From contig JANJTM010000024.1 in the NCBI GenBank assembly GCA_024711125.1, positions 1 through 15,971 on the forward strand: a stretch of 15,971 nt of DNA, given 5' to 3'. Each line of letters begins with the position of its first letter. The stretch's first letter is position 1. Origin of the DNA: Rhodothermales bacterium. Lineage in GTDB: Bacteria; Bacteroidota; Rhodothermia; Rhodothermales; UBA10348. Positions 260 to 10,986 of this stretch are shown here, piece after piece. The translations under genes were made by a program, and so were the position numbers. The notes beneath the pieces were generated by a model. That model was not told the origin of the DNA, searched no databases, and saw only the letters and a list, made by a program, of their open reading frames with translations.

Positions 260-2932
260 TCACTTCATCAGCACGATCGACCGTTCGAATACGCGGTTGC
301 CGGTGCGCATCCGCACGATGTAGAGGCCGCTCGTCAGCGAGCTGCCGTCCATCTGCACGGTGTGGCGGCCGGCCGCCATCGTCTCGTTCACGAGCGTCTG
401 GACCTGGCGGCCGAGGATGTCATACACCGTGATGGTGATGGCGCTCGTGGCCGGCACGTCGTAGGAGATCGTCGTGGTCGGGTTGAACGGGTTCGGATAG
501 TTCTGATTCAGGGCGAACTCGGTCGGCAGGCCGGTGGCCTCGTTGGCCACCGAAACGGCCGCGGCCGCTTCGGCCGACGCGACACCCTGGTTTCCGTTGA
601 AGTCGGTTGCAGTCACCACGTAGTAGTAGTAATTGCCCGCGACGACGGTATTGTCGACGTAGGTCGGATCGGTGACGGTCGCGAGCGGAGTCGTCGGGGA
701 GAAGCCCGAGGTCGTTCCGCGGTAGACCGAGAAGAACTTGAAGTCGGCGTCGACCGGGTCGTCCCAGGTCAGCGTCACGCTGGATGCCGTCGCGTCGACG
801 ACCATGCCCGTCGGGGCCGACGGGGCGAGGTTGTCGGTCGACTGGCCCGCCATCGGGTTCGACATGGCCACGGCGCCCGAGCGCGTGTGGCCGGTCACCA
901 TGTACTCGGTGGCCGTGCCGTCGCCAAGGGTCGGAACGATGGCCGAGTAGTTCTCGAGCCGGGCGGCGGGCTGCTGGCCCACGGCCGTCCAGACTTCACC
1001 GGCGAGGTCGATCGCCATGCCCGCGGCTTCGCCTTCGACCTTGTCGAGCGTCGAGAGGTTGCCCTTGCCGGCGATGTTGTCCTTGCGCCAGATGTAGTAG
1101 GTCAGCACGGGGTCTTCGGCCACGCCGTCGCCGCCGAACTTCGACCACACGACCTGGACCTGCCGGCCCTGGTCGTTCGGAACGTCCAGCACGCTGGCGA
1201 TGGCACCCGGGGCGAGCACGCCGCCCTGGAGGGCACGCAGCGTCAGCTGGATGAGACCGACGGCATACTGGTAGTTGTGCATGCCCTCGGAATTGTCCTC
1301 GTGGACGTAGTTGTAGTTGAACGCGGCCTGCTTCTGGATCCGGGTGTAGCTGTTGGTCACGGTGAAGGTCGGGACACCGATCGGCGGAAGCAGCATGGCG
1401 ACCTGGTCCATCAGGCCGTGCAACTCATCGATGGCTGCCTCGACCGTCTTGTCGCCGTCGTAGTCGTAACGAGCCTGGATGTCGTGGAACGACTCCATCT
1501 CGCCGTGGCAGCGTTCGCACGCCGCGACGTTGTTGACGACCGCTCCGTTCACGAGCGCCTGCACGCCGAACGAGTGGCTGCCCAGCAGATTCTTTCCGGC
1601 GTCGTCCGAGGTCGGCGTCTCGTACATGTGGCAATCGACGCACGAGTTCTCGAGCGCGTCGCGGTGCGTCGAGCTCGGGATGTAGTACCCGAAGTTGTTG
1701 GCGACGTTATTGGCCGCCAGCATGTCGACCTGCGCCGAGCGGTGCGGATCCTGGCGGGTGCCGCCCGTTTCGACCTGGATGGCACCCGTGCGGCGAGCCT
1801 TGTGGCAGTTCATGCAGAGACGGCCCTTGCCGCCCCACTGGACCACGGTCCCGTCGATCAGCGTCACGTCGGCCACCGAGCGCAACTGGTTCGGATTGGC
1901 CGCGTCGTGCGGGTCGTGGCAGGCCGCGCACGTGATGGGCTCGCCGGTCCCGACCTTCTGATCGAGATTGGACAGCGGGTCGATCTTCGCGATGAAGCCC
2001 CACGTGGAGTGGCACTCGGCGCACGATGCACTGGTTCCGCGAGCAAAGGAGGCTCCCGTCGCGTGAATCGAGTTCTTCCACTGCAGCACGTACACGTGGT
2101 GCGTGCCCGAGTCGTGGCACTGCGCGCAGACCGCCGTTTCCACCGAGATGTCGGTGAAGTTGACGTCGCCCTTGTGCTCGGAGCCCGGTCCGTGGCAGGA
2201 TTCGCACTGGATCTGGGTCTTGGCCGCCAGCGCCGGGAAATTGTCGACGATGTTCTGCCAGTCGCCCGGTGCCGGATGCGACGGGAACGCCCAGCCGAGT
2301 TCGCGCTGCACGTCATCGAAGCCGCCGTTGTTCGCCGACGGATCGGTGTTGTACCCGAGCACGTGGCAGCTCAGGCAGCGCTCCATGAAGTGGTCGGTCG
2401 AGATGCCGTCGATCGCCAGCGTGAACGCGTGCGAGTGGTTCGTCGCTTCCCAGTCGACCGTGTTGTCGACGTGGCAGCCCGCGCACTGTCCGTTGCGGAA
2501 GTTCGGGTTCTGACCGGCGATCGAGCCCACGCCGACGTATTCGGCCGCCTTGACCTTGATCGAGGTCGAGGCGGGACCCGCGGCGGTCGTGATCGTCAGG
2601 TTGACGGTGTATTCACCGGCATCCATCGGGCGGAACGTGGTCCATTCCTGGCCCTGCGTGTCCGGCGCGACGGCGCCGCCGGTCGGCCCGGTGATCGACC
2701 ACTCGAACGCGGTAATGGCCTCGCCGCCCGCGTTCGAGCCCCGGAGATAGACGGTTTCGCCCTTGCCGACCACGTCGAGGCCGGACGAGGGCTTGGTGGT
2801 CCAACCGCGGTCGGCGAGATCGCGCGGGCTCATGCCCACGATCTTGATCCGGGCGGCCGGAACCATCTCGATGACGAACTGCGTGGCAGCCACCGCGAAG
2901 AGTGCGGCAACAAGCAGTATCAGTCGTTTCAT
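260..2932 (-). CDS. Nine-heme c-type cytochrome with a signal peptide, an FN3 domain and a T9SS (Por) C-terminal sorting domain
   Basis: ATG verified at 2930-2932 on the minus strand, giving MKRLILLVAALFAVAATQF as the signal peptide. The 966-aa track ORF carries 76 extra upstream residues that are unlikely to be real. Nine CxxCH motifs are present: CAGCH, CLSCH, CESCH, CAQCH, CAECH, CAACH, CMNCH, CVDCH and CERCH. An FN3-like segment follows (SVTLTWDDPVDADFKFFSVYRG...YYYVVTATDFNGNQG). The C-terminus NQNYPNPFNPTTTISYDVPATSAITITVYDILGRQVQTLVNE...SGLYIVRMRTGNRVFERSIVLMK matches the Por secretion tail consensus (TIGR04183-like). Confidence 0.9.
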   Translation of the reverse strand: MKRLILLVAALFAVAATQFVIEMVPAARIKIVGMSPRDLADRGWTTKPSSGLDVVGKGETVYLRGSNAGGEAITAFEWSITGPTGGAVAPDTQGQEWTTFRPMDAGEYTVNLTITTAAGPASTSIKVKAAEYVGVGSIAGQNPNFRNGQCAGCHVDNTVDWEATNHSHAFTLAIDGISTDHFMERCLSCHVLGYNTDPSANNGGFDDVQRELGWAFPSHPAPGDWQNIVDNFPALAAKTQIQCESCHGPGSEHKGDVNFTDISVETAVCAQCHDSGTHHVYVLQWKNSIHATGASFARGTSASCAECHSTWGFIAKIDPLSNLDQKVGTGEPITCAACHDPHDAANPNQLRSVADVTLIDGTVVQWGGKGRLCMNCHKARRTGAIQVETGGTRQDPHRSAQVDMLAANNVANNFGYYIPSSTHRDALENSCVDCHMYETPTSDDAGKNLLGSHSFGVQALVNGAVVNNVAACERCHGEMESFHDIQARYDYDGDKTVEAAIDELHGLMDQVAMLLPPIGVPTFTVTNSYTRIQKQAAFNYNYVHEDNSEGMHNYQYAVGLIQLTLRALQGGVLAPGAIASVLDVPNDQGRQVQVVWSKFGGDGVAEDPVLTYYIWRKDNIAGKGNLSTLDKVEGEAAGMAIDLAGEVWTAVGQQPAARLENYSAIVPTLGDGTATEYMVTGHTRSGAVAMSNPMAGQSTDNLAPSAPTGMVVDATASSVTLTWDDPVDADFKFFSVYRGTTSGFSPTTPLATVTDPTYVDNTVVAGNYYYYVVTATDFNGNQGVASAEAAAAVSVANEATGLPTEFALNQNYPNPFNPTTTISYDVPATSAITITVYDILGRQVQTLVNETMAAGRHTVQMDGSSLTSGLYIVRMRTGNRVFERSIVLMK

Positions 2933-3226
2933 TTGGAAAAGTGCTCCCGGCAGGAAATGCCTTGGCCCTGCCGTCAATGATACTTGGATGGGCCCTCTCA
3001 CCGAGTCTTGCGTCTCGCCGGGGGCGTTCTTGACGTTCCAGCGCCCGCGGACCCGGCATTCCGGGCGATCCGCGCGCGCGGGATCGTCGGGAACAAGGAT
3101 AGGAGCCGACGGGCCCGGAAAGCCCCGGCATTCGTCCGATTTGGGTGTCGGCTGACCCATGCTCCGCGGTGAGAGATAAAACCCGGGGGAGCATGAAGCA
3201 ATGGATTACAACGCGAGTAGCCTTTT

Positions 3227-3244
3227 CCTTACATGCGTGTAAGG
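3227..3244. promoter_or_regulatory. Inverted repeat CCTTACA-tgcg-TGTAAGG in the divergent intergenic region
   Basis: Read directly from the sequence. It lies in the relatively AT-rich 435-bp intergenic region between the cytochrome start (2932, minus) and the hypothetical gene (3368, plus). An inverted repeat of this size is expected by chance in a window this long, so the support is weak. Confidence 0.2.
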
Positions 3245-3304
3245 GCGCGGTAGGTGCCACCTCCCGGATCGATGCGGAAAGTCCTGAAAAACACCAAAAT
3301 GACC

Positions 3305-3324
3305 TGTGACAAATCGTTGTCACA
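3305..3324. promoter_or_regulatory. Candidate operator, a 20-bp perfect palindrome TGTGACAA-atcg-TTGTCACA
   Basis: 8-bp perfect arms with a 4-bp spacer. It sits 44-63 bp upstream of the ATG at 3368 and about 370 bp upstream of the divergent cytochrome gene. It has TGTGA/TCACA half-sites like CRP/FNR-type sites, but with different spacing. Confidence 0.35.
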
Positions 3325-3367
3325 TCCCTTGCGATATGTTGCCGTCGACACTGAAACACGCACCGCC

Positions 3368-3982
3368 ATGACCGCTCCGTCCACCCGACCCACCGTCGCC
3401 GACCTGCTCCGGCTGCGCCGTTCCGCGCCTCGTACCCGCGCGGTCCACCTCGCCACGCCCGGCCCCGAAGGCATGCTGTCCGAATCCCTTTCGCGCGCCG
3501 TCGCGCCGGGCGTGCGCGTGCTGCGTCGCACGGTCGTGGAGACTCCCGCGGGACGCAGCCATGTTCCGCTCGTTCTGGAATCGGCCGGTCGGCGCATCGC
3601 GGTCCTTCCGGACGACGCGGCCGGGCCCGCTTCGGCAGAGGACGCGGCCATGATCCTGGTCTTCGGCGTGTTCGACGTCGTCTACCGGGTGCGGCGCCGG
3701 GCCCTGCTCGGCGACGTACCCGGCGTGGCAGCCGAGATTGCGGGGCAGGAGCCGACGCTGTTCGACGACGAATCGCGCCGCGCAATGCGCCTGTGCGCGT
3801 TGCCGCGCAAGGCCGGGGCAACGGCCTCGGATCGTCCACCGGTCCGTCCCGCGGCGGGTTCGTCGATGGTGGACGTGCGCGTGATGCGGCTGAAGTGCCC
3901 GACCGAGTGGGCCGACGCCTTCGAAATGGCGATGCGGTCGGTCGAAGCGACGCGGGCCCCCCTCTTTGCGCGCAGCGCCTGA
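3368..3982 (+). CDS. Hypothetical protein of about 204 aa with no recognisable domain
   Basis: An ORF with strongly GC-biased third codon positions throughout (MTAPSTRPTVADLLRLRR...FEMAMRSVEATRAPLFARSA). The track begins it at 3254, but that extension covers the AT-richer palindrome region, so the ATG at 3368 is preferred. It converges on the flotillin stop with a 9-bp gap. The antisense 549-aa ORF 2613..4262 is Arg/Pro-rich junk. Confidence 0.5.
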   Translation: MTAPSTRPTVADLLRLRRSAPRTRAVHLATPGPEGMLSESLSRAVAPGVRVLRRTVVETPAGRSHVPLVLESAGRRIAVLPDDAAGPASAEDAAMILVFGVFDVVYRVRRRALLGDVPGVAAEIAGQEPTLFDDESRRAMRLCALPRKAGATASDRPPVRPAAGSSMVDVRVMRLKCPTEWADAFEMAMRSVEATRAPLFARSA

Positions 3983-3991
3983 TCGGATCGG

Positions 3992-5227
3992 CTAGTCCCC
4001 GGTCTCCCCGCGTTCCTGCGACGCACGGCTGAGCAGGCCCGCGATGTCGATGCCCGTGGTTGCCTTCAGCGATTCGAGAAGCGCCGGGGTCGAGCCCGCG
4101 ATCTGGTTGAATACGGCGGGAACGCCCTGTCCCTGTCCCGAATCGACCACCGTCAACTTGTCGATCTTGAGGTTGTCGACGGTCTTGATGACCTCCTTCA
4201 GGATGTCGGGGAGCATCTGGAGCAGGAAGAGCCGCTCGGCGTCCGGCCCGGCCTGGCGCCACAGTTCGAGCTTGCGCGTGAGAATTTCGACCTCGGCGAG
4301 ACCGTCCTGGGCGATGCGGGCGGCGTTGCCCTTCGCGGTCTCTTCCTTGGCCTTGCGCTCGGCCTCGGCGACGACGACAACCTCGGCGTGCGTGCGCTTC
4401 TCGGCCAGCGCGATTTCCTGCTTGGCGAGTTCCTGCTCGGCGGTCGCCTTGGCGACCTGGCCGGAAACCTCCACACGGGCTTCTTCGGCTTTCGCCTTCG
4501 CGTCGAGCTGGGCTTTCAGGATGCGCACGTCGGTCTGCGCCTGCGCGATCGCGCGGTCGGCATCGGCCTCGGCCAGCTTGGCCTGCTGGCGCATCTGCGC
4601 TTCGACGACTTCGGCCGCGGCGATGATGTTCGCGGTACTCTGGCGTCCGATGGCGTTCAGGTACCCCCGGTCGTCCTCGACGCTCTGGATCTTGAGCGTG
4701 TCGAGCTGAAGCCCGAGAGCGCCCAGGTCGTTGTCGGCCTCCTCGACCAGCACCTTCGCGAACTTGAGCCGGTCCTCGTTCACCTCCTCGGGCGTCAGTG
4801 TCGCGCAGACGCCGCGGAGGTTTCCCTCGAGCGTCTCCTTGGCAATGGTCTGGATCTCCTCGAGCGGCTTTGCCAGCAGGCGTTCGACCGCGTTGTTGAG
4901 CTCGGTCTCGTTCGACGAGATCTTGACGTTGGCGATCGCCTTGACCGTGAGAGGGATTCCGCCCTTCGAATAGGCGTTCGACACGGTGAGATCTATCGGA
5001 ATCGTCGTGAGCATCAGCCGGTCGACCTTTTCGATGATCGGAATGCGGAATCCGCGCCCACCCCGGATCACCCGGTACCCCACCTGGCTTCCGTCGGAAA
5101 GCCGCCGCTTGCGGCCGCTGAAAATGAGGACCTCGTTCGGCTGGCAGATCTTCAGATTGGCGCGCACGATGCCGAGCACGGCCAGAAATCCGAGGATCAG
5201 GATGGCCGGTACGACGAAGAGTTCCAT
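3992..5227 (-). CDS. floT: Flotillin-like SPFH/band-7 protein (FloT/YuaG family)
   Basis: An N-terminal membrane anchor (MELFVVPAILILGFLAVLGIV), an SPFH domain, then a long Ala/Glu/Lys-rich coiled-coil (AEQELAKQEIALAEKRTHAEVVVVAEAERKAKEE). The ATG at 5225-5227 is verified, and GGAGG lies 9 nt upstream. Confidence 0.9.
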   Translation of the reverse strand: MELFVVPAILILGFLAVLGIVRANLKICQPNEVLIFSGRKRRLSDGSQVGYRVIRGGRGFRIPIIEKVDRLMLTTIPIDLTVSNAYSKGGIPLTVKAIANVKISSNETELNNAVERLLAKPLEEIQTIAKETLEGNLRGVCATLTPEEVNEDRLKFAKVLVEEADNDLGALGLQLDTLKIQSVEDDRGYLNAIGRQSTANIIAAAEVVEAQMRQQAKLAEADADRAIAQAQTDVRILKAQLDAKAKAEEARVEVSGQVAKATAEQELAKQEIALAEKRTHAEVVVVAEAERKAKEETAKGNAARIAQDGLAEVEILTRKLELWRQAGPDAERLFLLQMLPDILKEVIKTVDNLKIDKLTVVDSGQGQGVPAVFNQIAGSTPALLESLKATTGIDIAGLLSRASQERGETGD

Positions 5228-5262
5228 GGCGTTGGCGCCTCCGGCGCGCTGGGAGATGGATC

Positions 5263-5856
5263 CTATTCCGGTTTTACCACTTCGGCGACTCGCCCGTCGA
5301 TGCGGATCACGACGACCTCGTCGCCCGGTGCGAACGTCTCGGACGCGTCGTCCGAAAGCGACCTGGCGAGAAGCTGCAGCCGTTGTCCCCTGGCCTCGAG
5401 CAGGATCTTGCCGCGCTCGGCACCTTCGAAGGGAACGAGGACGCGGGCCGTCCGCCCTGCGAGCTCCTGCAGGCCCACGCTGCTCGTCACCTGCTCGTAG
5501 GCGAACCGCTTGATCGCGTAGTTTCCGCCCAGGCCCACGATCAGGCCGGTCAACGTCGCGAGGACCGCGGTGAGCGGTTCGGTCGTGTCGAGCCAGGAGA
5601 GCGCCGAACCGGTCAGGCCGAAAAAGGCCGCGAAGAGGAACAGCGCGCGAAGCGAGAACAGGTCGACGAAATCGGGACCGTCGTGGCCGGCGTCGAGGCC
5701 GTGGTCGAGATGGACGTCGTGGTCGGGCGATTCGCCCGCATCGGCGTCGACCTCGGCGTCGGCGTCAGCGTCAGACGAGCCCCCGCTCCCGCCGAAGATC
5801 GACAGCAGCACGAAGAACCCCCCGACGATCAGGCAGACCAGGTATACCGATTCCAT
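5263..5856 (-). CDS. nfeD: NfeD-family membrane protein (YuaF-like), the partner of flotillin
   Basis: N-terminal transmembrane helices (MESVYLVCLIVGGFFVLLSIFGG ... LFLFAAFFGLTGSALSWL) and a C-terminal beta-rich OB-fold-like segment (RVLVPFEGAERGKILLEARGQRLQLLAR...GDEVVVIRIDGRVAEVV). It lies immediately upstream of flotillin on the same strand, which is the classic nfeD-flotillin pair. The track start at 5898 is a TTG codon; the ATG at 5854-5856 is preferred. Confidence 0.85.
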   Translation of the reverse strand: MESVYLVCLIVGGFFVLLSIFGGSGGSSDADADAEVDADAGESPDHDVHLDHGLDAGHDGPDFVDLFSLRALFLFAAFFGLTGSALSWLDTTEPLTAVLATLTGLIVGLGGNYAIKRFAYEQVTSSVGLQELAGRTARVLVPFEGAERGKILLEARGQRLQLLARSLSDDASETFAPGDEVVVIRIDGRVAEVVKPE

Positions 5857-5949
5857 GCGAGCAGCCCGCCGGATGAACGGCGCATGATAGATCCCCAAGC
5901 GCTCGGAATCAAAGCGAGATAGCCGTATCGGGGGGTCGGGGACTTCCCG

Positions 5950-6309
5950 TCAGGATCCGGTCCCGACGGGGGTCACGGCGGCGCGGTCCTCCTCGCCGGT
6001 GCGGATGCGGTACACTTTTTCCACCGGAAGTACGAAGATCTTGCCGTCGCCGACGTCCCCGGTGCGCGCGGCACGAAGAATGGCCTGGACCGTGGGCTCG
6101 ACGAACGGGTCCGAAACGCCGATGTCGAGTTGCACCTTGTCGGCCAGCTCCCTGCGCACCGTGGTTCCACGGTAGGTCTCCTCGGCTTCGCGTTCCCCGC
6201 CGTGACCGCGGACGCGGGAGACGGTGAATCCGCGCACGTCGGCCTCGAACAGCGCGAAGAGCACGTCCGTCAGCTTCTCGGGCCTGATGATGGCCTTGAC
6301 GAGTTTCAT
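5950..6309 (-). CDS. glnK: Nitrogen regulatory protein PII (GlnK)
   Basis: MKLVKAIIRPEKLTDVLFALFEADVRGFTVSRVRGHGGEREAEETYRGTTV...GDGKIFVLPVEKVYRIRTGEEDRAAV follows the PII pattern, including a T-loop Tyr. ATG at 6307-6309 verified. It starts 20 bp after the amtB stop. The longer track ORFs 5909..6832 and 5950..6711 are Arg-rich 5' read-through. Confidence 0.9.
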   Translation of the reverse strand: MKLVKAIIRPEKLTDVLFALFEADVRGFTVSRVRGHGGEREAEETYRGTTVRRELADKVQLDIGVSDPFVEPTVQAILRAARTGDVGDGKIFVLPVEKVYRIRTGEEDRAAVTPVGTGS

Positions 6310-6329
6310 GGGTCGTAGCGGAATGGGTT

Positions 6330-7616
6330 TCAGGCGGCCGCCCGGACTGCGGGAGCCGGATTCGAGGATTCGAGAACGAGCACCGCACCCTCCCCGTCGG
6401 AGTAGGCCTCTTCGCCGTGCAGCGCCACGTCCAGGCCCTGCGCCTCCTGGCGGGGGCTGACGCGAATCGAGGTGATGCGCCGAAGGGCGAAGACGATGAG
6501 CGCCGAGACGGTCGCGCTGTACAGGAAGACGGCGGCGATCGACAGCGCCTGGACGGCGAGTTGCGACGGATTGCCGTGGAGCAGTCCGTCGTACGAACCG
6601 TTCCACGCCGGGTCGGCGAAGACGCCGACGAGCAGGGCGCCCACGATCCCGCCGACGCCGTGGGCCGCGAACACGTCCAGCGAGTCGTCGAGGCGGGTGC
6701 GGGCCCGCCATACCAGCGCGAAGTGGCTGGGGGCCGCGGCGATCGCGCCGATGGCAAGTGCGGATACGGGAGAAACGAGGCCGGCCGCCGGCGTAATCGC
6801 CACGAGCCCGACCACGGCGGCGGTGGCGGCACCTACCGCCGTGACCCTCCCCGTCCTCACGGTATCGAGGAGCATCCAGACCAGGATCGTGGCCGACGGG
6901 GCGAGCAGCGTATTGACGAAGGCGAGGACGGCCAGGCGGTCAGCCGCGAGCGCCGACCCTCCGTTGAAGCCGAACCATCCGAACCAGAGCAGCCCGGCGC
7001 CGAGCACCACGAACGGCACGTGGTGCGGAAGAAGTGCGAGGCGGCCGTAGTCCGTTCGGGGCCCGAGAGTGCGCGCCAGCACCCACGCGGCGGCGGCGGC
7101 GTTCACGTGGACCACGGCGCCACCGGCGAAATCGAGTGCGCCGAGCGAGGCGATCCAGCCTCCGCCCCAGACCCAGTGGCAGACCGGGGCATAGACGAAG
7201 AGGCCCCAGAGGGCGATGAATGCGACGTACGGACCGAATCGGATGCGTTCGACCACGGCGCCGGAGATCAGGGCGGCCGTGATCACGAAAAAGGTGCCTT
7301 GGTATGCCATGAAGAGGAGGTGGGGCACCGTTCCGCGCGCTTCGAGATCTACCCCGTCGAGAAAAGCCATCGAGAAGTCGCCGATCCATGCGGAGCCCGT
7401 GCCGAAGGCGAGGGAGTACCCGACGGTCACCCAGGTGACCAGCGAAACCCCCAGGGCCACGAAACTCATCATCATGGTGTTGAGCATGTTCTTCGCACGG
7501 ACCAGGCCGCCGTAGAACAGGGCGAGCGCCGGGGTCATGAGCAGGACCAGGCCGGCCGACACGAGCACCCAGACGATATCGGCTCCGGAAAGCGCGGATG
7601 GAACGGTTGTAGGCAT
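6330..7616 (-). CDS. amtB: Ammonium transporter (Amt family)
   Basis: A 428-aa polytopic membrane protein with Amt hallmarks (FYGGLVRAKN, MAFLDGVD, GAVVERIRFG, DFAGGAVVHVNAAAAAW, AHGVGGIVGALLVGVFA). ATG verified at 7614-7616. It is co-directional with glnK and directly upstream of it. Confidence 0.95.
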   Translation of the reverse strand: MPTTVPSALSGADIVWVLVSAGLVLLMTPALALFYGGLVRAKNMLNTMMMSFVALGVSLVTWVTVGYSLAFGTGSAWIGDFSMAFLDGVDLEARGTVPHLLFMAYQGTFFVITAALISGAVVERIRFGPYVAFIALWGLFVYAPVCHWVWGGGWIASLGALDFAGGAVVHVNAAAAAWVLARTLGPRTDYGRLALLPHHVPFVVLGAGLLWFGWFGFNGGSALAADRLAVLAFVNTLLAPSATILVWMLLDTVRTGRVTAVGAATAAVVGLVAITPAAGLVSPVSALAIGAIAAAPSHFALVWRARTRLDDSLDVFAAHGVGGIVGALLVGVFADPAWNGSYDGLLHGNPSQLAVQALSIAAVFLYSATVSALIVFALRRITSIRVSPRQEAQGLDVALHGEEAYSDGEGAVLVLESSNPAPAVRAAA

Positions 7617-7692
7617 TGGATGACCAAGGAAATAAGGACAAGGGCCGCTCGTAGCTTACGAAGTAATGATGATGTGCGCTATGGACGTGCTT

Positions 7693-7709
7693 TCGGAAAG
7701 CGCTTCCGA
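7693..7709. promoter_or_regulatory. Palindrome TCGGAA-agcgc-TTCCGA in the amtB/ddrA-like divergent intergenic region
   Basis: 6-bp arms. The centre, AAGCGCTT, is itself an 8-bp perfect palindrome. It lies about 80 bp upstream of the amtB ATG on the minus strand. Confidence 0.25.
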
Positions 7710-7731
7710 CTCGGGAAAATTTAATTCGGAG

Positions 7732-7751
7732 TATGACAGAATGATGTCATA
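7732..7751. promoter_or_regulatory. Candidate operator, a 20-bp palindrome TATGACA-gaatga-TGTCATA
   Basis: 7-bp perfect arms with a 6-bp spacer in an AT-richer 177-bp divergent intergenic region. It lies 43 bp upstream of the ATG at 7794 and about 115 bp upstream of the amtB ATG. Confidence 0.35.
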
Positions 7752-7793
7752 TACCCGCGGCTATCCTGTGCCCGCAACACACCGAGCCCCCCG

Positions 7794-8303
7794 ATGACTC
7801 CGTCATTTCTCGCCGCACTCACCCGGAGGTTCTCCTCCGATGACCTCGCGTGGAAGCCCGTCGCCGTCAACCGCGAGCAGGGCCGGGCGCGGGTCGTGCC
7901 GTACGTCACGAACCGCGCGATCATGGATCGACTGGACCAGGTATGCGGTCCGGAAAACTGGCGCAACGAGTATTGCCCGGGCCCGAACGGCGGCCTGCTC
8001 TGCGGCATCTCGATACGCCTCGTACGCGAGGATCATACCGCGGAGTGGGTTACCAAGTGGGACGGCGCCGAGAATACCCAGCTCGAGCCGGTCAAGGGCG
8101 GTCTCTCGGCCTCCATGCGCCGGGCCGCCGTGCAGTGGGGCATCGGTCGGTACCTCTATCGCATCCCGCCGATCGAGGCCCGGGTAGACGAACAGGGCCG
8201 ACTCGTGGGACGTCCGGAGCTTCCTCCGGAGTTCCGGCCCGAGCCGGTCGAACCGCGCCGTCTCCGCCCCGCGGCCGCCAGGGCCCGCGAGATGGCCGCA
8301 TAA
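7794..8303 (+). CDS. ddrA: Rad52/Rad22-family single-strand annealing protein (DdrA-like)
   Basis: LAWKPVAVNREQGRARVVPYVTNRAIMDRLDQVCGPENWRNEY ... GGLSASMRRAAVQWGIGRYLYRIPP carries the two hallmark blocks of bacterial and phage Rad52-family proteins. The first block matches the pattern W/SWKP...V.PYV..R.I.DRLD.V.GP..W. The second matches A.KRAAVQ(F/W)GIGRYLY, as in Deinococcus DdrA and phage Sak. ATG at 7794 verified. Confidence 0.75.
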   Translation: MTPSFLAALTRRFSSDDLAWKPVAVNREQGRARVVPYVTNRAIMDRLDQVCGPENWRNEYCPGPNGGLLCGISIRLVREDHTAEWVTKWDGAENTQLEPVKGGLSASMRRAAVQWGIGRYLYRIPPIEARVDEQGRLVGRPELPPEFRPEPVEPRRLRPAAARAREMAA

Positions 8304-8360
8304 GGTGGTGGGCGGTCCACCGGTGCGTAGCTTCAGGTCCTGAACGAGCGTACGATCGTG

Positions 8361-9491
8361 ATGGCCGAGGGGCATCTCAACCGGACCGAGGTCCTTCGAT
8401 ACGGAAGACATCTTCTGCTGCCCGAGATCGGACTCGAGGGCCAGGAGCGACTCCGAAACGCGTCGGTCCTCGTGGTCGGCGCCGGCGGACTCGGCTCTCC
8501 GGCGGCCCTCTACTGCGCTGCCGCAGGATTCGGCCGGCTGGGCATCGCCGACGCCGATACCGTGGACCCGTCCAATCTCCAGCGCCAGATCCTGTATTCG
8601 GAGCCCGACATAGGGGCCTCCAAGGTGGAGCGAGCCGTACTCAGGCTGCGGGAATTCAACCGCGGAGTGCGCGTGGAACCGATCCAGGTCCGGGTCGATG
8701 CTTCCAACGCCCTGGCCATCGTCGCGGAGTACGACCTGGTCATCGACGCGACCGACAACTTCGAAACGAGGTACCTGCTCGCCGACGTCTCCGCCCTCAC
8801 GGGACGCCCGGTGGTACACGGCGCCGTGCACGGATTCGAAGGGCAGGTATCGGTATTCGGCCTGCCCGGAAGGCCGTGCTACCGTTGCCTCCATCCCGTG
8901 CCGCCTCCTCCGGGCCTGGCCCCCGGGTGCGGGGAGGCCGGCGTGCTCGGGGCGGCGACCGGCGTGATCGGCTCGTTGCAGGCCGTGGAAGCCGTGAAGC
9001 TCGCCGCGGGAGCGGGCGAGCCGCTGGCCGGGCGCCTGCTCCACATCGACCTGCGGCTCGGCCGCTTCGAGACCATCGAGTTCGACGCGGACCCGTCCTG
9101 CCCGGCCTGCGGGAGGTCCGCAACGCCGGAAATCCGGCACGACTACACCGAGTTCTGCGGAGCCGCCGACCCGGTCGTGCGCACCGTGACCGCGATCGAA
9201 CTCGCACGACGCCTCGTCGACCCGGAATCCGTGCAGTTGATCGACGTGCGCCGACCGCACGAAGCGCACATCGTTTCGATCGGTGGCATCGTCATCCCCG
9301 AATTCGAGCTTCCGGCGCGGATGTCTGAGTTGGACCCGGCTCGCCCGGTCGTGTGCTACTGCCGATCCGGGATACGCTCGGCGCGAGCGGCGGCGCTCCT
9401 GGAGGCCGCGGGCTTTTCAGATGTCGCCCACCTGGCAGGGGGGCTGTTCTCGTGGGCAGCCACGGTCGACCCCGATATTCCGCTCTACTGA
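8361..9491 (+). CDS. moeZ: MoeZ/MoeB-type adenylyltransferase-sulfurtransferase (ThiF/MoeB E1-like domain plus C-terminal rhodanese)
   Basis: YGRHLLLPEIGLEGQERLRNASVLVVGAGGLGSPAALYCAAAGFGRLGIADAD..SNLQRQ is the nucleotide-binding E1 fold. CYRC...CPAC is the zinc motif. The C-terminal rhodanese domain carries the active-site loop CYCRSGIRS. The track start at 8358 is GTG and is immediately followed by the ATG at 8361. It begins 57 bp after the ddrA-like stop on the same strand. Confidence 0.9.
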   Translation: MAEGHLNRTEVLRYGRHLLLPEIGLEGQERLRNASVLVVGAGGLGSPAALYCAAAGFGRLGIADADTVDPSNLQRQILYSEPDIGASKVERAVLRLREFNRGVRVEPIQVRVDASNALAIVAEYDLVIDATDNFETRYLLADVSALTGRPVVHGAVHGFEGQVSVFGLPGRPCYRCLHPVPPPPGLAPGCGEAGVLGAATGVIGSLQAVEAVKLAAGAGEPLAGRLLHIDLRLGRFETIEFDADPSCPACGRSATPEIRHDYTEFCGAADPVVRTVTAIELARRLVDPESVQLIDVRRPHEAHIVSIGGIVIPEFELPARMSELDPARPVVCYCRSGIRSARAAALLEAAGFSDVAHLAGGLFSWAATVDPDIPLY

Positions 9492-9506
9492 CCCGCGACC
9501 GCGATC

Positions 9507-10055
9507 TCAGTCCCCGTCGGGTCCGTCTGCGCGCAACGCACGACCCAGCCCGATCGGAAGCGTGGCGCCTTCGAGTACGGCACCGGTGAGGTCGGCACCG
9601 GTCAGATCGGCACCCGCGAGATTCGCCGAAACGAGGATTGCGCGCCGGAGCACGGCCCCCTCCAGCCGGCAGCGACGAAGGTCGGCGTCGTGAAGGATCG
9701 CTTCCGTGAGTCGGGCGCCCGAGAGGTCGGCTTCGCCGAGGTCCGCCTGGTTGAGCACGGCGAAACTGAGGTCGGCTCCGCGGAGGCATGCGGCCCGGAG
9801 GACCGCGCCGGTAGCGTCTGCACCGGTCAGGTTCGCCCCGGACAGGTCGGAGCCCGAGAAGTCGCAACCCTCCAATTCGGCCACGGTGAGGTAGGCCCCG
9901 GCCAGATCCGACCGCGACAGATCGCATCCCCGCAGATCTGCCCCCGTGAGGTCGGCCCCGGTGAGATCCGGCCGAACGTCCGGAAATGCCCTCCGCCACG
10001 CGTTGAACGATTCCGCGCCGCCCAGCAGGCGATCCACGAGATCACGGTCGGCCAT
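9507..10055 (-). CDS. Pentapeptide-repeat protein
   Basis: About 25 tandem A(D/N)LxG pentapeptides (ADLTGADLTGADLRGCDLSRSDLAGAYL...ANLAGADLTGADLTGAVLEGATL). The preferred start is the ATG at 10053-10055 (MADRDLVDRLL), which has GAGGA 5 nt upstream. In-frame ATGs at 10091 and 10100 are alternatives. It converges on moeZ with a 15-bp gap. Confidence 0.8.
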   Translation of the reverse strand: MADRDLVDRLLGGAESFNAWRRAFPDVRPDLTGADLTGADLRGCDLSRSDLAGAYLTVAELEGCDFSGSDLSGANLTGADATGAVLRAACLRGADLSFAVLNQADLGEADLSGARLTEAILHDADLRRCRLEGAVLRRAILVSANLAGADLTGADLTGAVLEGATLPIGLGRALRADGPDGD

Positions 10056-10118
10056 CGAATCCTCGAATTCCCTCGGGCGGGCAAGTGACATCAGCGGCAT
10101 GATACGCGTAGCTTCGGC

Positions 10119-10346
10119 GTGCAAACGAATCCGTCGGTCCCCCTCGTGAACATCTGGCTCGACCGCCTGCCGGTCCTGTTCGCCCGGCTCGCGAAAATCG
10201 CCGTGGCCTGTTTCGGCATCGCGGCCGTGGGAATGGCGCTCGGATGGTCCTGGCACGAAGCCGCCCGGTGGGTGCTCTGGATCGGAGGAATAGGGGCCGC
10301 AGCCGCGACCGCTGGATGGGTAATCGGCACCCTGAAAACCGATTAA
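10119..10346 (+). CDS. Possible small membrane protein of 75 aa with two predicted transmembrane helices
   Basis: GTG start with no clear RBS. Third-position GC is about 78%. There are two hydrophobic helices (LPVLFARLAKIAVACFGIAAVGMALGW and WVLWIGGIGAAAATAGWVIGTL). No homology is recognised, so it could be spurious. Confidence 0.35.
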   Translation: MQTNPSVPLVNIWLDRLPVLFARLAKIAVACFGIAAVGMALGWSWHEAARWVLWIGGIGAAAATAGWVIGTLKTD

Positions 10347-10518
10347 AGCGATTTCGGCCGTCGCGAAAAAGAAGAAGCGGTTCGGGACCCGAAGGGCCTC
10401 GTTTCGGAGGGCGGCTCGGTATTCGCGCGTGTCCGAGGTGGGCCACGAAACTCCGCAGGCCGGAGACCGCGCCTCCGTTCGCTCTTCTAAGGGAACGAAA
10501 GGGTGCGGACCTGGGATT

Positions 10519-10665
10519 TCGGCCCAAAGTCGATGTATTCGACCCCAAAAGCGGGTGAATATGTCGACTAATGGCCCTTTTTCGACGTTTTGCCCCCGAA
10601 AAGCGGGCCAATACATCGACTTTCGGCCTCGATTCGATGTATTGGTCCCCGATATGCGGAAGGGA
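10519..10665. repeat. Three degenerate tandem units of about 50 bp. Each has a GTCGATGTATT-like arm around a CCCC(G)AAAAGCGGG loop
   Basis: The motif agtcgatgtatt occurs at 10529-10540. Its exact reverse complement aatacatcgact occurs at 10612-10623, and tcgatgtatt recurs directly at 10634-10643. Related arms are gaatatgtcgac (10557-10568) and ttcgacgttttg (10581-10592). The intervening loops are ccccaaaagcggg (10546), cccccgaaaagcgggcc (10594) and ccccgatatgcgg (10648), each able to form CCCG/CGGG mini-hairpins. The region is non-coding: only overlapping Arg-rich ORFs are predicted. Confidence 0.5.
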
Positions 10666-10806
10666 CAAGCCGCCCGCAGCCCTTCGCGGGCCGGCCGGGC
10701 CCGGTCGACGAGCCGTTCGACCCGCCCGGCACCGACGAGAAGGGGCTGTCCAGATCACTCCGGACTGCCCCGTAAGTATGCTCTAACCGGCGTTTCTGCC
10801 TGGAAG

Positions 10807-10904
10807 CACCCCGGCGAAGCCGGTCCCGGTCAACAAAACCAGCCGGTCCCGGTCAAACACCACCGCCCTTCGAACCCACCCCGGCGAAGCCGGTCCCGGT
10901 CAAC
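10807..10904. repeat. Perfect 28-bp direct repeat CACCCCGGCGAAGCCGGTCCCGGTCAAC (10807-10834 and 10877-10904) with a partial third copy at 10841-10858, ending 9 bp from the 3' end of tRNA-Ala
   Basis: Read directly from the sequence. The repeat period is 70 bp. Each copy contains the hairpin CCGGC-gaa-GCCGG followed by the tandem hexamer ccggtc ccggtc. The partial copy is AGCCGGTCCCGGTCAAAC. Confidence 0.7.
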
Positions 10905-10913
10905 CAAATCGAG

Positions 10914-10986
<73 letters not shown>

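What the first reader, a model, noticed from the sequence alone, without database searches (positions are those of the whole stretch)
10347..10913. A 570-bp non-coding block next to tRNA-Ala is built from three tandem hairpin units sharing a GTCGATGTATT arm motif in both direct and inverted copies
Between the small membrane ORF and the tRNA there is no credible coding frame, only overlapping Arg-rich frames. The stretch 10519-10665 contains three units of about 50 bp. In these units the 12-mer agtcgatgtatt occurs directly, then as its exact reverse complement, then directly again. Each copy is separated by a conserved CCCC(G)AAAAGCGGG loop that forms its own CCCG/CGGG mini-hairpin. It is followed by GC hairpins (GCCCGC-N8-GCGGGC and the 10-bp palindrome CCGGGCCCGG). 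An arrangement of a recurrent protein-binding-like motif in both orientations around structured loops is typical of recombinase arm sites, iterons or a structured small RNA. It is not typical of an ordinary spacer.
Basis: seen in the sequence. Interest (0 to 1): 0.55.

Follow-up and report, generated by a model that had tools for sequence, protein, structure and literature searches.

The report
Duplicated hairpin spacer beside tRNA-Ala
The spacer between a small membrane-protein gene and a convergent tRNA-Ala gene holds a locally duplicated, roughly 52-base hairpin unit that most likely only ends or protects transcripts, so it is real but ordinary.

Summary
The repeats and hairpins are real. 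The recombinase-site and iteron readings are not supported.

- **Setting:** positions 10347-10912 are non-coding. They lie between a conserved 75-aa membrane ORF (+) and tRNA-Ala(GGC) (-), which converge.
- **Anatomy:** the core (10517-10659) is a short tandem duplication: two full ~52-nt units at 66% identity, plus a partial unit at each end. Each unit carries an inverted-repeat pair (AATAYRTCGACT / TCGAYGTWTTG) and a CCCC(G)AAAAGCGGG motif. Duplicating such a unit automatically gives the direct, inverted, direct pattern and three adjacent hairpins.
- **Terminator reading:** the first hairpin is followed directly by one of only two T5 runs on the + strand of the 16-kb contig. This looks like the small ORF's intrinsic terminator.
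- **Relatives:** a 93.5%-identical relative keeps the array, but no better than the flanking spacer, and its substitutions break stem pairs. A sister lineage (69% aa identity in ThiF) has no room for the array at the corresponding place.
- **Searches:** there is no other copy in 22 kb of this genome, in GTDB species genomes or in JGI metagenomes. There is no Rfam match and no integrase, transposase or Rep gene.
- **Open rival:** a sparse REP-like family cannot be excluded without the whole genome.
- **More interesting side finding:** a conserved, copy-number-variable repeat abuts the tRNA.

The parts
10119..10346 (+). Small two-helix membrane ORF (75 aa), the upstream gene whose 3' region is the spacer
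   Evidence: It is called as a gene in 7 Logan contigs. A 48%-identical ortholog sits in the same synteny in L009. GC3 is 0.78.
10365..10400 (-). Minus-strand terminator-like element: hairpin 10374-10400 followed by UUCUUUUUC (10365-10373)
   Evidence: Fold. The positional counterpart in L099 is a canonical 12-bp GC hairpin followed by UUUCUUUUUU. This A5 run is one of only 6 on the + strand of the 16-kb contig.
10517..10542 (.). Partial unit u0, carrying arm X (AGTCGATGTATT, 10528-10539)
   Evidence: It matches the tail of u2, score 26 against a null 95th percentile of 18.
10543..10593 (.). Unit u1: CCCCAAAAGCGGG, then AATATGTCGACT, a spacer and TTCGACGTTTTG
   Evidence: It aligns ungapped to u2 at 33/50.
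10594..10646 (.). Unit u2: CCCCGAAAAGCGGG, then AATACATCGACT, a spacer and TTCGATGTATTG
10647..10659 (.). Partial unit u3: degenerate loop motif CCCCGATATGCGG
   Evidence: score 16, at chance level.
10521..10582 (+). Hairpin H1: 12-bp stem 10528-10539/10558-10569 with two G-U pairs, extended by GGCC/GGCC, followed by CUUUUU (T5 at 10578-10582). Proposed intrinsic terminator of the small ORF.
   Evidence: Free energy is -29.5 kcal/mol on the + strand and -27.1 on the - strand. z = -4.83. The T5 run is one of two on the + strand of the contig.
10574..10608 (.). Hairpin H3 (CCCUUUUUCG / CGAAAAGCGGG), an alternative to the free U-tract
   Evidence: Free energy is -11.2 (+) and -15.6 (-) kcal/mol. 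It is present in the minus-strand minimum-energy fold.
10605..10648 (.). Hairpin H2: 15-bp stem. On the minus strand it is followed by GCUUUUCGG.
   Evidence: Inverted repeat I2, 93% complementary. Free energy is -25.6 (+) and -22.0 (-) kcal/mol.
10672..10704 (.). GC-rich palindromes: GCCCGC-N8-GCGGGC (10672-10691) and CCGGGCCCGG (10695-10704)
10807..10908 (.). tRNA-proximal repeat family: CACCCCGGCGAAGCCGGTCCCGGTCAAC twice, plus a partial copy at 10841-10868. Copy number varies between strains, and the unit is conserved in the sister lineage.
10913..10986 (-). tRNA-Ala (anticodon GGC), convergent with the small ORF
   Evidence: ARAGORN. Rfam RF00005, 71.4 bits.

Best explanation
The block is the non-coding zone between two convergent genes: the small membrane ORF on the + strand and tRNA-Ala on the - strand.

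**Origin (shown).** The centre is a local tandem duplication of a ~52-nt unit: a CCCC(G)AAAAGCGGG motif, then arm X', a ~12-nt spacer and arm X. There are about 2.7 copies at 66% identity. Because the unit holds an inverted repeat, duplication yields the 11-12-mer in direct and inverted copies. It also yields three consecutive hairpins whose arms can pair with either neighbour.

**Function (inferred).** The hairpins act at the RNA level, at the 3' ends of the convergent transcripts.
- H1 plus its GGCC extension is followed directly by CUUUUU. It is the first stable hairpin with a U-tract downstream of the small ORF, so it would be that gene's Rho-independent terminator or 3'-end protecting stem.
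- H2 followed by GCUUUUC on the other strand would be a weaker stop for read-through from the tRNA. A second minus-strand terminator at 10365-10400 would back it up.

The extra copies are probably duplication by-products under little sequence-specific constraint. The array is specific to this lineage.
For: - **Unit structure:** the units and their 66% ungapped identity are shown.
- **Stability:** the hairpins fold far better than shuffles.
- **U-tracts:** T5 runs are very rare, with 2 on the + strand and 6 on the - strand in 16 kb. One follows H1 directly and one forms the minus-strand terminator beside the ORF stop.
- **This organism uses canonical terminators:** the cytochrome gene ends with a GC hairpin plus a U6 run, and L099 has a canonical one too.
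- **No earlier terminator:** the + strand between the stop codon and the array has no stable structure (z = +1.39).
- **No coding signal and no known family:** for coding; for Rfam.
- **Near-neutral drift in the relative:** L096 (93.5% identity) has 4 changes in 147 nt, against 95.4% and 94.3% identity in the flanks. Three of the four fall in predicted stem or inner-helix positions of H1 and H2. None is compensated on the + strand, and each hairpin loses about 4 kcal/mol there.
- **Lineage-specific:** the sister lineage goes from the terminator to the tRNA-proximal repeat in 12 nt, against about 410 nt here.
- **No other copy:** none in 22 kb of this genome or 13 kb of the sister lineage.
Against: - No transcript data exist, so neither termination nor the transcribed strand is shown.
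- H1 is long, has an internal loop and is AU-rich, unlike the GC-rich canonical terminators of this contig.
- The terminator scan found nothing here, although its rules cap the loop at 8 nt.
- The U-tract can be sequestered in H3.
- Between u1 and u2 the arms and the loop motif are much better conserved (32/37) than the spacers (5/14). One arm position shows an A-U to G-C double change (my reading of the alignment). This hints at constraint on pairing or at a recognised motif. The motif definition is partly circular, however.
- A terminator role does not explain why there should be three hairpins.
Confidence: 0.45

Rival explanations
1. A cluster of REP/REPIN- or MITE-like palindromic elements, in the manner of a BIME. 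These would be dispersed mobile hairpin repeats that accumulated and were amplified in tandem in a gene-free convergent spacer.
For: - The element is extragenic, sits at the 3' ends of convergent genes, and is made of short imperfect palindromes in alternating orientation with tandem amplification. This anatomy matches REPIN clusters as described in PMC3116915.
- Arms are better conserved than spacers.
- GC content is lower, at 59%.
- The sister lineage lacks it at this site, which would fit an insertion.
Against: - There is no second copy of either motif in 22 kb of this genome or 13 kb of the sister lineage. At REP densities of about 1 per 6-8 kb, zero extra copies has p of roughly 0.03-0.06 (my estimate).
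- Eight independent k=31 Logan assemblies (L001-L007, L096) run straight through the array, and a ninth (L097) breaks only at 10701. So no 31-mer is shared with other loci.
- There is no multi-copy hit in 185,579 GTDB species genomes or in JGI metagenomes, although the source genome itself is not in those sets.
- The two best copies are not a true inverted doublet. The arms are inverted but the CCCC-AAAAG-CGGG cores are direct, which fits tandem duplication instead.
- There is no Y1 transposase in the contig.
Confidence: 0.2
2. Part of a non-coding RNA made on the tRNA strand. tRNA-Ala would be co-transcribed with a long 3' trailer running to the terminator beside the small ORF, or there would be a separate small RNA. 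The hairpin array would be a lineage-specific structured module of that RNA.
For: - A minus-strand intrinsic terminator sits next to the small-ORF stop in both lineages, implying minus-strand transcription across the spacer.
- There is no hairpin with a U-tract directly after the tRNA.
- The whole 566 nt folds with z = -4.4 on the - strand.
- The tRNA-proximal repeat is conserved across lineages.
Against: - The + strand folds equally well (z = -4.65), as expected for DNA palindromes.
- The three G-U pairs in H1 and H2 favour the + strand. The one L096 change that preserves a wobble favours the - strand, so there is no consistent strand signal.
- There is no Rfam match, no promoter-like site and no covariation.
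- The array is absent at the corresponding place in the sister lineage.
Confidence: 0.13
3. Protein-binding DNA sites: recombinase arm or att sites of an element integrated at the tRNA, or iterons of a replication origin.
For: - The 11-12-mer recurs in both orientations beside a tRNA gene, and tRNA genes are common integration targets (general knowledge).
- The motif cluster is highly non-random.
Against: - There is no integrase, transposase, Rep or partition gene in 16 kb plus a further 6 kb.
- The genes on the array side are syntenic housekeeping genes that abut the same tRNA in the sister lineage, so no island lies between them.
- The repeats do not duplicate the tRNA 3' end.
- Copy spacing and orientation are fully accounted for by the 52-nt tandem unit.
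- There is no AT-rich unwinding region. The minimum GC is 59%.
Confidence: 0.04

Closest known systems
Rho-independent (intrinsic) terminators and 3' stem-loops in convergent intergenic regions
   Same: A stable hairpin is followed directly by a U-run downstream of a gene on the same strand. There are opposed hairpin and U-tract pairs between convergent genes. The same contig and the sister lineage contain canonical examples.
   Different: The stems are AU-rich and long (12-15 bp, with an 18-nt structured loop in H1). The hairpin is present in tandemly duplicated copies. The U-tract can be sequestered in H3. The simple terminator scan did not call it.
REP / REPIN / BIME palindromic repeats (Bertels & Rainey 2011, PMC3116915)
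   Same: Extragenic, short imperfect palindromes, inverted arms separated by a less conserved spacer that together form a hairpin, and occasional tandem clusters.
   Different: No dispersal was seen in 22 kb. No 31-mer is shared with other loci. The cores are in direct rather than inverted orientation. No RAYT gene is visible. The units are only 66% identical, whereas ordered REPIN clusters are nearly identical.
Short tandem duplications (minisatellite-like) in bacterial intergenic DNA
   Same: About 2.7 head-to-tail copies of a ~52-nt unit that decay towards the edges. The neighbouring repeat at 10807-10908 shows copy-number polymorphism between strains.
   Different: The copies are old (66% identity) and are not seen to vary in number among the 10 related contigs that cover the array.

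Membership tests
Intrinsic terminator | A stable stem-loop followed directly by a U-rich tract on the transcribed strand | tested here: met
   The extended H1 hairpin (-29.5 kcal/mol) ends at 10576 and is followed by CUUUUUCGACGUUUUG. The consensus scan, which limits loops to 8 nt, did not report it.
Intrinsic terminator | Located downstream of a gene end with no earlier terminator | tested here: met
   The + strand of 10347-10420 is unstructured (z = +1.39). H1 is the first hairpin with a U-run after the small-ORF stop.
Intrinsic terminator | Transcript 3' ends map to the U-tract | not testable with these tools
   No transcriptome data were available.
REP / REPIN | Short extragenic imperfect palindromes | tested here: met
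REP / REPIN | Tens to hundreds of dispersed copies per genome | tested here: inconclusive
   There is no other copy in 22 kb of this genome. Eight independent k=31 assemblies run straight through the array and a ninth ends only at 10701. The whole genome could not be reached, and the GTDB and JGI scans gave only chance hits.
REP / REPIN | A REPIN is two REPs in fully inverted orientation | tested here: not met
   The arms are inverted, but the CCCC(G)AAAAGCGGG cores at 10543 and 10594 are both in direct orientation.
REP / REPIN | A cognate RAYT (Y1 transposase) in the genome | not testable with these tools
   There is none in the 16-kb contig or the 6-kb extension. The rest of the genome was not available.
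Integrase att or arm sites at a tRNA | An integrase gene and an inserted element flanked by repeats of the tRNA 3' end | tested here: not met
   No integrase was found. The small ORF and tRNA-Ala are neighbours in the sister lineage as well. I saw no resemblance between the repeats and the tRNA sequence on reading; this was not tested by alignment.
Iterons or replication origin | Regularly spaced direct repeats of about 17-22 bp, with an adjacent rep gene and an AT-rich region | tested here: not met
   The copies alternate in orientation within a 52-nt unit. No rep gene was found. GC is at least 59%.
Any Rfam RNA family | A covariance-model match | tested here: not met
   Only tRNA reaches the gathering score. 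At E up to 10, the only hit with a low E-value is the tRNA gene end matched by the tmRNA model; the other two are weak (E = 1.9 and 3.2) and none lies in the array.

The most novel reading that the evidence does not exclude
The whole 566-nt spacer would be a tRNA-Ala-linked non-coding transcript, a long 3' external transcribed spacer ending at the conserved minus-strand terminator.
- Its conserved core would be the copy-number-variable GCGAAGCCGGTC(C)CCGGTC(C)AAC repeat abutting the tRNA.
- The hairpin array would be a lineage-specific structured module of it.
- Alternatively, the array would be the first sighted copy of a sparse REPIN-like family in an unstudied high-GC lineage that carries a T9SS sorting domain and has no close relative (over 70% ThiF identity) in public data.
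Probability: 0.15. Interest if true: 0.5.

Novelty: new member of a known kind. Interest (0 to 1): 0.2.

Why it matters
As it stands it matters little. It shows how a single hairpin unit duplicated in tandem can mimic a set of binding sites in both orientations, which is a useful caution for motif-based scans.

It also marks the likely transcript ends of a small conserved membrane-protein gene and a tRNA in a poorly sampled high-GC lineage.

It would matter more if the full genome showed a dispersed family, which would be a new REP-like system in an unstudied phylum-level group. It would also matter if the tRNA-linked spacer proved to be a functional RNA. The conserved, copy-number-variable repeat next to the tRNA is the better lead for that.

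Tried and rejected
- **Rfam:** searched at gathering score and at E up to 10. Only tRNA-related hits appeared.
- **Tandem Repeats Finder:** it misses the array because the units are only 66% identical.
- **Consensus promoter and terminator scan:** nothing found.
- **GTDB species-genome scan with AAAGTCGATGTATTSGNCC:** 70 singleton hits, apparently in coding sequence of unrelated taxa (read from sequence context, not checked with ORF calls), none with a hairpin. The source MAG is not in that set.
- **JGI metagenome scan for X-N(10-40)-X' hairpins:** 15 unrelated palindromes.
- **Viral-contig scans for both motifs:** 110 and 7 single-match hits, none examined in context, taken as chance.
- **Small-ORF homolog searches (single sequence and two-sequence profile):** only the two known lineages were found.
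- **ThiF homologs:** only three relatives are above 60% identity. One reaches the spacer, and it has a 100-N scaffold gap there.
- **Exact-protein look-ups for XdhC and the carboxylesterase,** meant to extend to the right: not on record.
- **Covariation analysis:** impossible. Nine strains are identical across the part of the array they cover and one relative has 4 uncompensated changes.
- **Ideas rejected:**
  - a coding gene;
  - a CRISPR array, from the unit structure read (no unique spacers), with no cas gene among the ORFs scanned;
  - retron or type III toxin-antitoxin RNA, as no RT or toxin gene was found among the ORFs scanned;
  - a dif/Xer site, judged only by eye against the consensus recalled from memory;
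  - a riboswitch or leader, because no downstream gene lies on either strand.

Full report
**Context**

The window is a complete 15,971-bp MAG contig: the ThiF-rhodanese protein cluster lists an NCBI contig of exactly that length. GC content is about 65-70%. It encodes a multihaem cytochrome with a T9SS sorting domain, a Band 7 protein, an ammonium transporter with P-II, a Rad52/22-family protein, ThiF-rhodanese, a pentapeptide-repeat protein, XdhC, a carboxylesterase and a molybdopterin-binding subunit.

Around the finding the order is:
- pentapeptide gene, 9507-10055 (-). The 369-aa ORF reaching 10616 is an over-extension, because the Pfam match covers only its C-terminal half and 182 aa are called in every contig;
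- a 75-aa two-helix membrane ORF, 10119-10346 (+);
- 566 nt of spacer;
- tRNA-Ala(GGC), 10913-10986 (-);
- XdhC (-).

The small ORF is a real gene. A 48%-identical ortholog sits in the same synteny in a lineage whose ThiF is 69% identical. The spacer therefore lies between two convergent genes.

**Checking the observation**

The spacer is non-coding. All overlapping ORFs have flat GC1/GC2/GC3, whereas real genes have GC3 of 0.69-0.88, and none matches Pfam.

- AGTCGATGTATT is at 10528 and its exact reverse complement at 10610.
- The third 'direct' copy at 10632 is 11/12.
- Two further degenerate arms are present (AATATGTCGACT at 10558, TTCGACGTTTTG at 10581).
- The third loop motif has three mismatches, which is at chance level.

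The GC palindromes at 10672 and 10695 are present. The cluster is far from chance. The only two exact copies and the only one-mismatch copy of the 11-mer in 16 kb fall within 115 nt, together with one of the four 2-mismatch hits. The segment 10500-10680 also folds with z = -4.8 (+) and -4.25 (-).

**Anatomy**

Aligning the pieces shows a ~52-nt unit made of, in order:
- the loop motif CCCC(G)AAAAGCGGG;
- 2 nt;
- arm X' (AATAYRTCGACT);
- a ~12-nt spacer containing GGCC;
- arm X (TCGAYGTWTTG).

Unit u1 (10543-10593) and unit u2 (10594-10646) are 66% identical without gaps. The tail of a further unit lies upstream (10517-10542) and the degenerate start of another lies downstream (10647-10659).

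This single fact explains the direct, inverted, direct pattern. A unit that contains one inverted repeat was duplicated head to tail.

The result is three adjacent hairpins:

| Hairpin | Coordinates | Free energy on + strand (kcal/mol) |
|---|---|---|
| H1 | 10528-10569, extended to 10521-10576 | -29.5 |
| H3 | 10574-10608 | -11.2 |
| H2 | 10605-10648 | -25.6 |

Each arm can pair with either its left or its right neighbour.

The two best copies are not a true inverted doublet. The arms are inverted but the loop motifs are both in direct orientation.

**Comparative evidence**

- **Near-identical strains.** Eight Logan contigs besides L096 (the 7 plus L097) are about 99.7-99.8% identical to the window and carry no change in the array.
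- **A 93.5% relative, L096.** It keeps the array with 4 substitutions in 147 nt (97.3%). The flanking spacer is 95.4% and 94.3% identical, a difference too small to mean anything. Divergence along the contig is mosaic, from 88% in ThiF to 99.6% in the small ORF. Three of the four substitutions hit predicted stem or inner-helix positions of H1 and H2. None is compensated on the + strand, where each hairpin loses about 4 kcal/mol. One of them is a wobble only on the minus strand, whereas the three G-U pairs in the window favour the + strand. So there is no covariation and no consistent strand signal.
- **The sister lineage.**
  - The ENA scaffold (L009) has a 100-N gap exactly between the small ORF and the tRNA.
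  - A Logan contig (L099) extends 109 nt past the stop codon. It shows a canonical minus-strand terminator, then 12 nt, then the unit GCGAAGCCGGTCCCCGGTCCAACAAAAC.
  - That unit matches the window's tRNA-proximal repeats, not the hairpin array, with scores of 44, 37 and 32 against a null maximum of 28.
  - The distance from the terminator to the first such repeat is about 410 nt here and 12 nt there. The hairpin array is therefore lineage-specific, unless it hides in the unassembled part.

**Searches elsewhere**

- There is no second copy of either motif in the window, in 6 kb of extra flank (L100) or in 13 kb of the sister lineage.
- A scan of 185,579 GTDB species genomes gave 70 singleton hits, apparently all coding by sequence context and in unrelated taxa.
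- A scan of JGI metagenomes for the hairpin gave 15 unrelated palindromes.
- Viral contigs gave only single-match hits, taken as chance.
- Two indirect points count against an abundant REP family. First, at 1 copy per 6-8 kb, zero extra copies in 22 kb has p of roughly 0.03-0.06 (my estimate). Second, eight independent k=31 assemblies (L001-L007, L096) run straight through the array and break only in or next to the tRNA-proximal repeats; a ninth (L097) ends at 10701 in the GC palindromes, just past the array.

**Mechanism**

This organism uses canonical intrinsic terminators. The cytochrome gene ends with a GC hairpin plus UUAUUUUUU.

T5 runs are very rare: 2 on the + strand and 6 on the - strand in 16 kb. 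One follows the extended H1 hairpin directly. Between the small-ORF stop and H1 the + strand has no stable structure (z = +1.39).

I therefore infer that H1 plus its U-run is the terminator, or 3'-end protecting stem, of the small-ORF mRNA.

On the other strand:
- H2 is followed by GCUUUUC.
- A hairpin with UUCUUUUUC lies at 10365-10400. It is the positional counterpart of the canonical terminator in the sister lineage.
- This implies that the tRNA strand is transcribed across the spacer.

What is shown is the duplication origin, the hairpin stability, the positions of the U-runs, and the absence of mobile-element or replication genes. Termination itself is inferred.

Two observations point to some constraint on pairing or on a recognised motif. 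The arms and loop motif are much better conserved between units (32/37) than the spacers (5/14). One arm pair also shows an A-U to G-C double change between units (my reading of the alignment). However, the motifs were defined by their conservation, so this argument is partly circular.

**Comparison with known systems**

- **REPIN/BIME clusters.** In anatomy the array resembles REPIN/BIME clusters (PMC3116915). It fails the fully-inverted-doublet criterion, and no dispersal or RAYT gene is in evidence.
- **Integrase att or arm sites and iterons.** It fails these criteria. There is no integrase or rep gene, no island, no tRNA-derived repeat and no AT-rich region.
- **Rfam.** It matches no family.
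- **Fold of the whole spacer.** The whole spacer is unusually structured on both strands (z = -4.4 and -4.65), as expected for DNA palindromes.

**Verdict**

This is a real, non-random, lineage-specific tandem hairpin array. It is best read as a duplicated terminator or stability hairpin in a convergent spacer (confidence about 0.45). A sparse REP-like element (about 0.2) and a tRNA-linked non-coding RNA (about 0.13) are the live rivals. Recombinase sites or iterons are unlikely (about 0.04).

Interest is low. The conserved, copy-number-variable repeat abutting the tRNA is the more curious feature of this spacer.

Noticed in passing
window 10807-10908; L099 1158-1185: A repeat abuts the tRNA-Ala 3' end: CACCCCGGCGAAGCCGGTCCCGGTCAAC twice, plus a partial copy. 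The same unit (26/28) follows the small ORF in a lineage with only 69% ThiF identity. There both CCGGTC half-sites are lengthened to CCGGTCC, which looks like a coordinated change. Its function is unknown.
   Followed up: partly
window 10833-10857; ends of L001-L007, L096, L099; N-gap L009 3363-3462: Eight of the nine window-lineage short-read contigs end in or next to this tRNA-proximal repeat (L097 ends earlier, at 10701). In the sister lineage L099 also ends there, and L009 has its 100-N gap there. A 23-nt unit (10835-10857) is missing in L004, L006 and L096. This points to copy-number polymorphism within populations.
   Followed up: partly
window 10365-10400 (-); L099 1118-1147 (-): A minus-strand intrinsic terminator lies next to the small-ORF stop. 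It is canonical in the sister lineage and weaker here. It implies that the tRNA strand is transcribed across the whole spacer.
   Followed up: partly
window 7794-8303 (+): A 169-aa Rad52/Rad22-family protein (Pfam E = 1.2e-13) is conserved in synteny next to ThiF-rhodanese in both lineages. This is an unusual chromosomal setting for a family I know mainly from phages.
   Followed up: no
window 1503-10834 vs L096: Divergence from the 93.5% relative is strongly mosaic: ThiF 88%, ammonium transporter 91%, cytochrome 98%, small ORF 99.6%, and the pentapeptide-to-small-ORF spacer 100%. This suggests recombination between related populations.
   Followed up: no
window 9507-10616 (-): The 369-aa ORF that overlaps the finding is an over-extended reading frame typical of high-GC DNA. 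Only its C-terminal 182 aa (9507-10055) form the pentapeptide-repeat gene.
   Followed up: yes
window 10741-10770: A further strong hairpin (GGGGCUGUCCAG...CCGGACUGCCCC) lies between the GC palindromes and the tRNA-proximal repeats. The whole spacer is a chain of hairpins (z about -4.5 on both strands).
   Followed up: no
L083 1612-1730; L091 1669-1790: Unrelated JGI contigs of about 49% GC carry three direct TCRATGTAT(T) copies facing inverted copies across a spacer, which looks like iterons or an operator. They were picked up only because my search pattern selects for this 10-mer.
   Followed up: no
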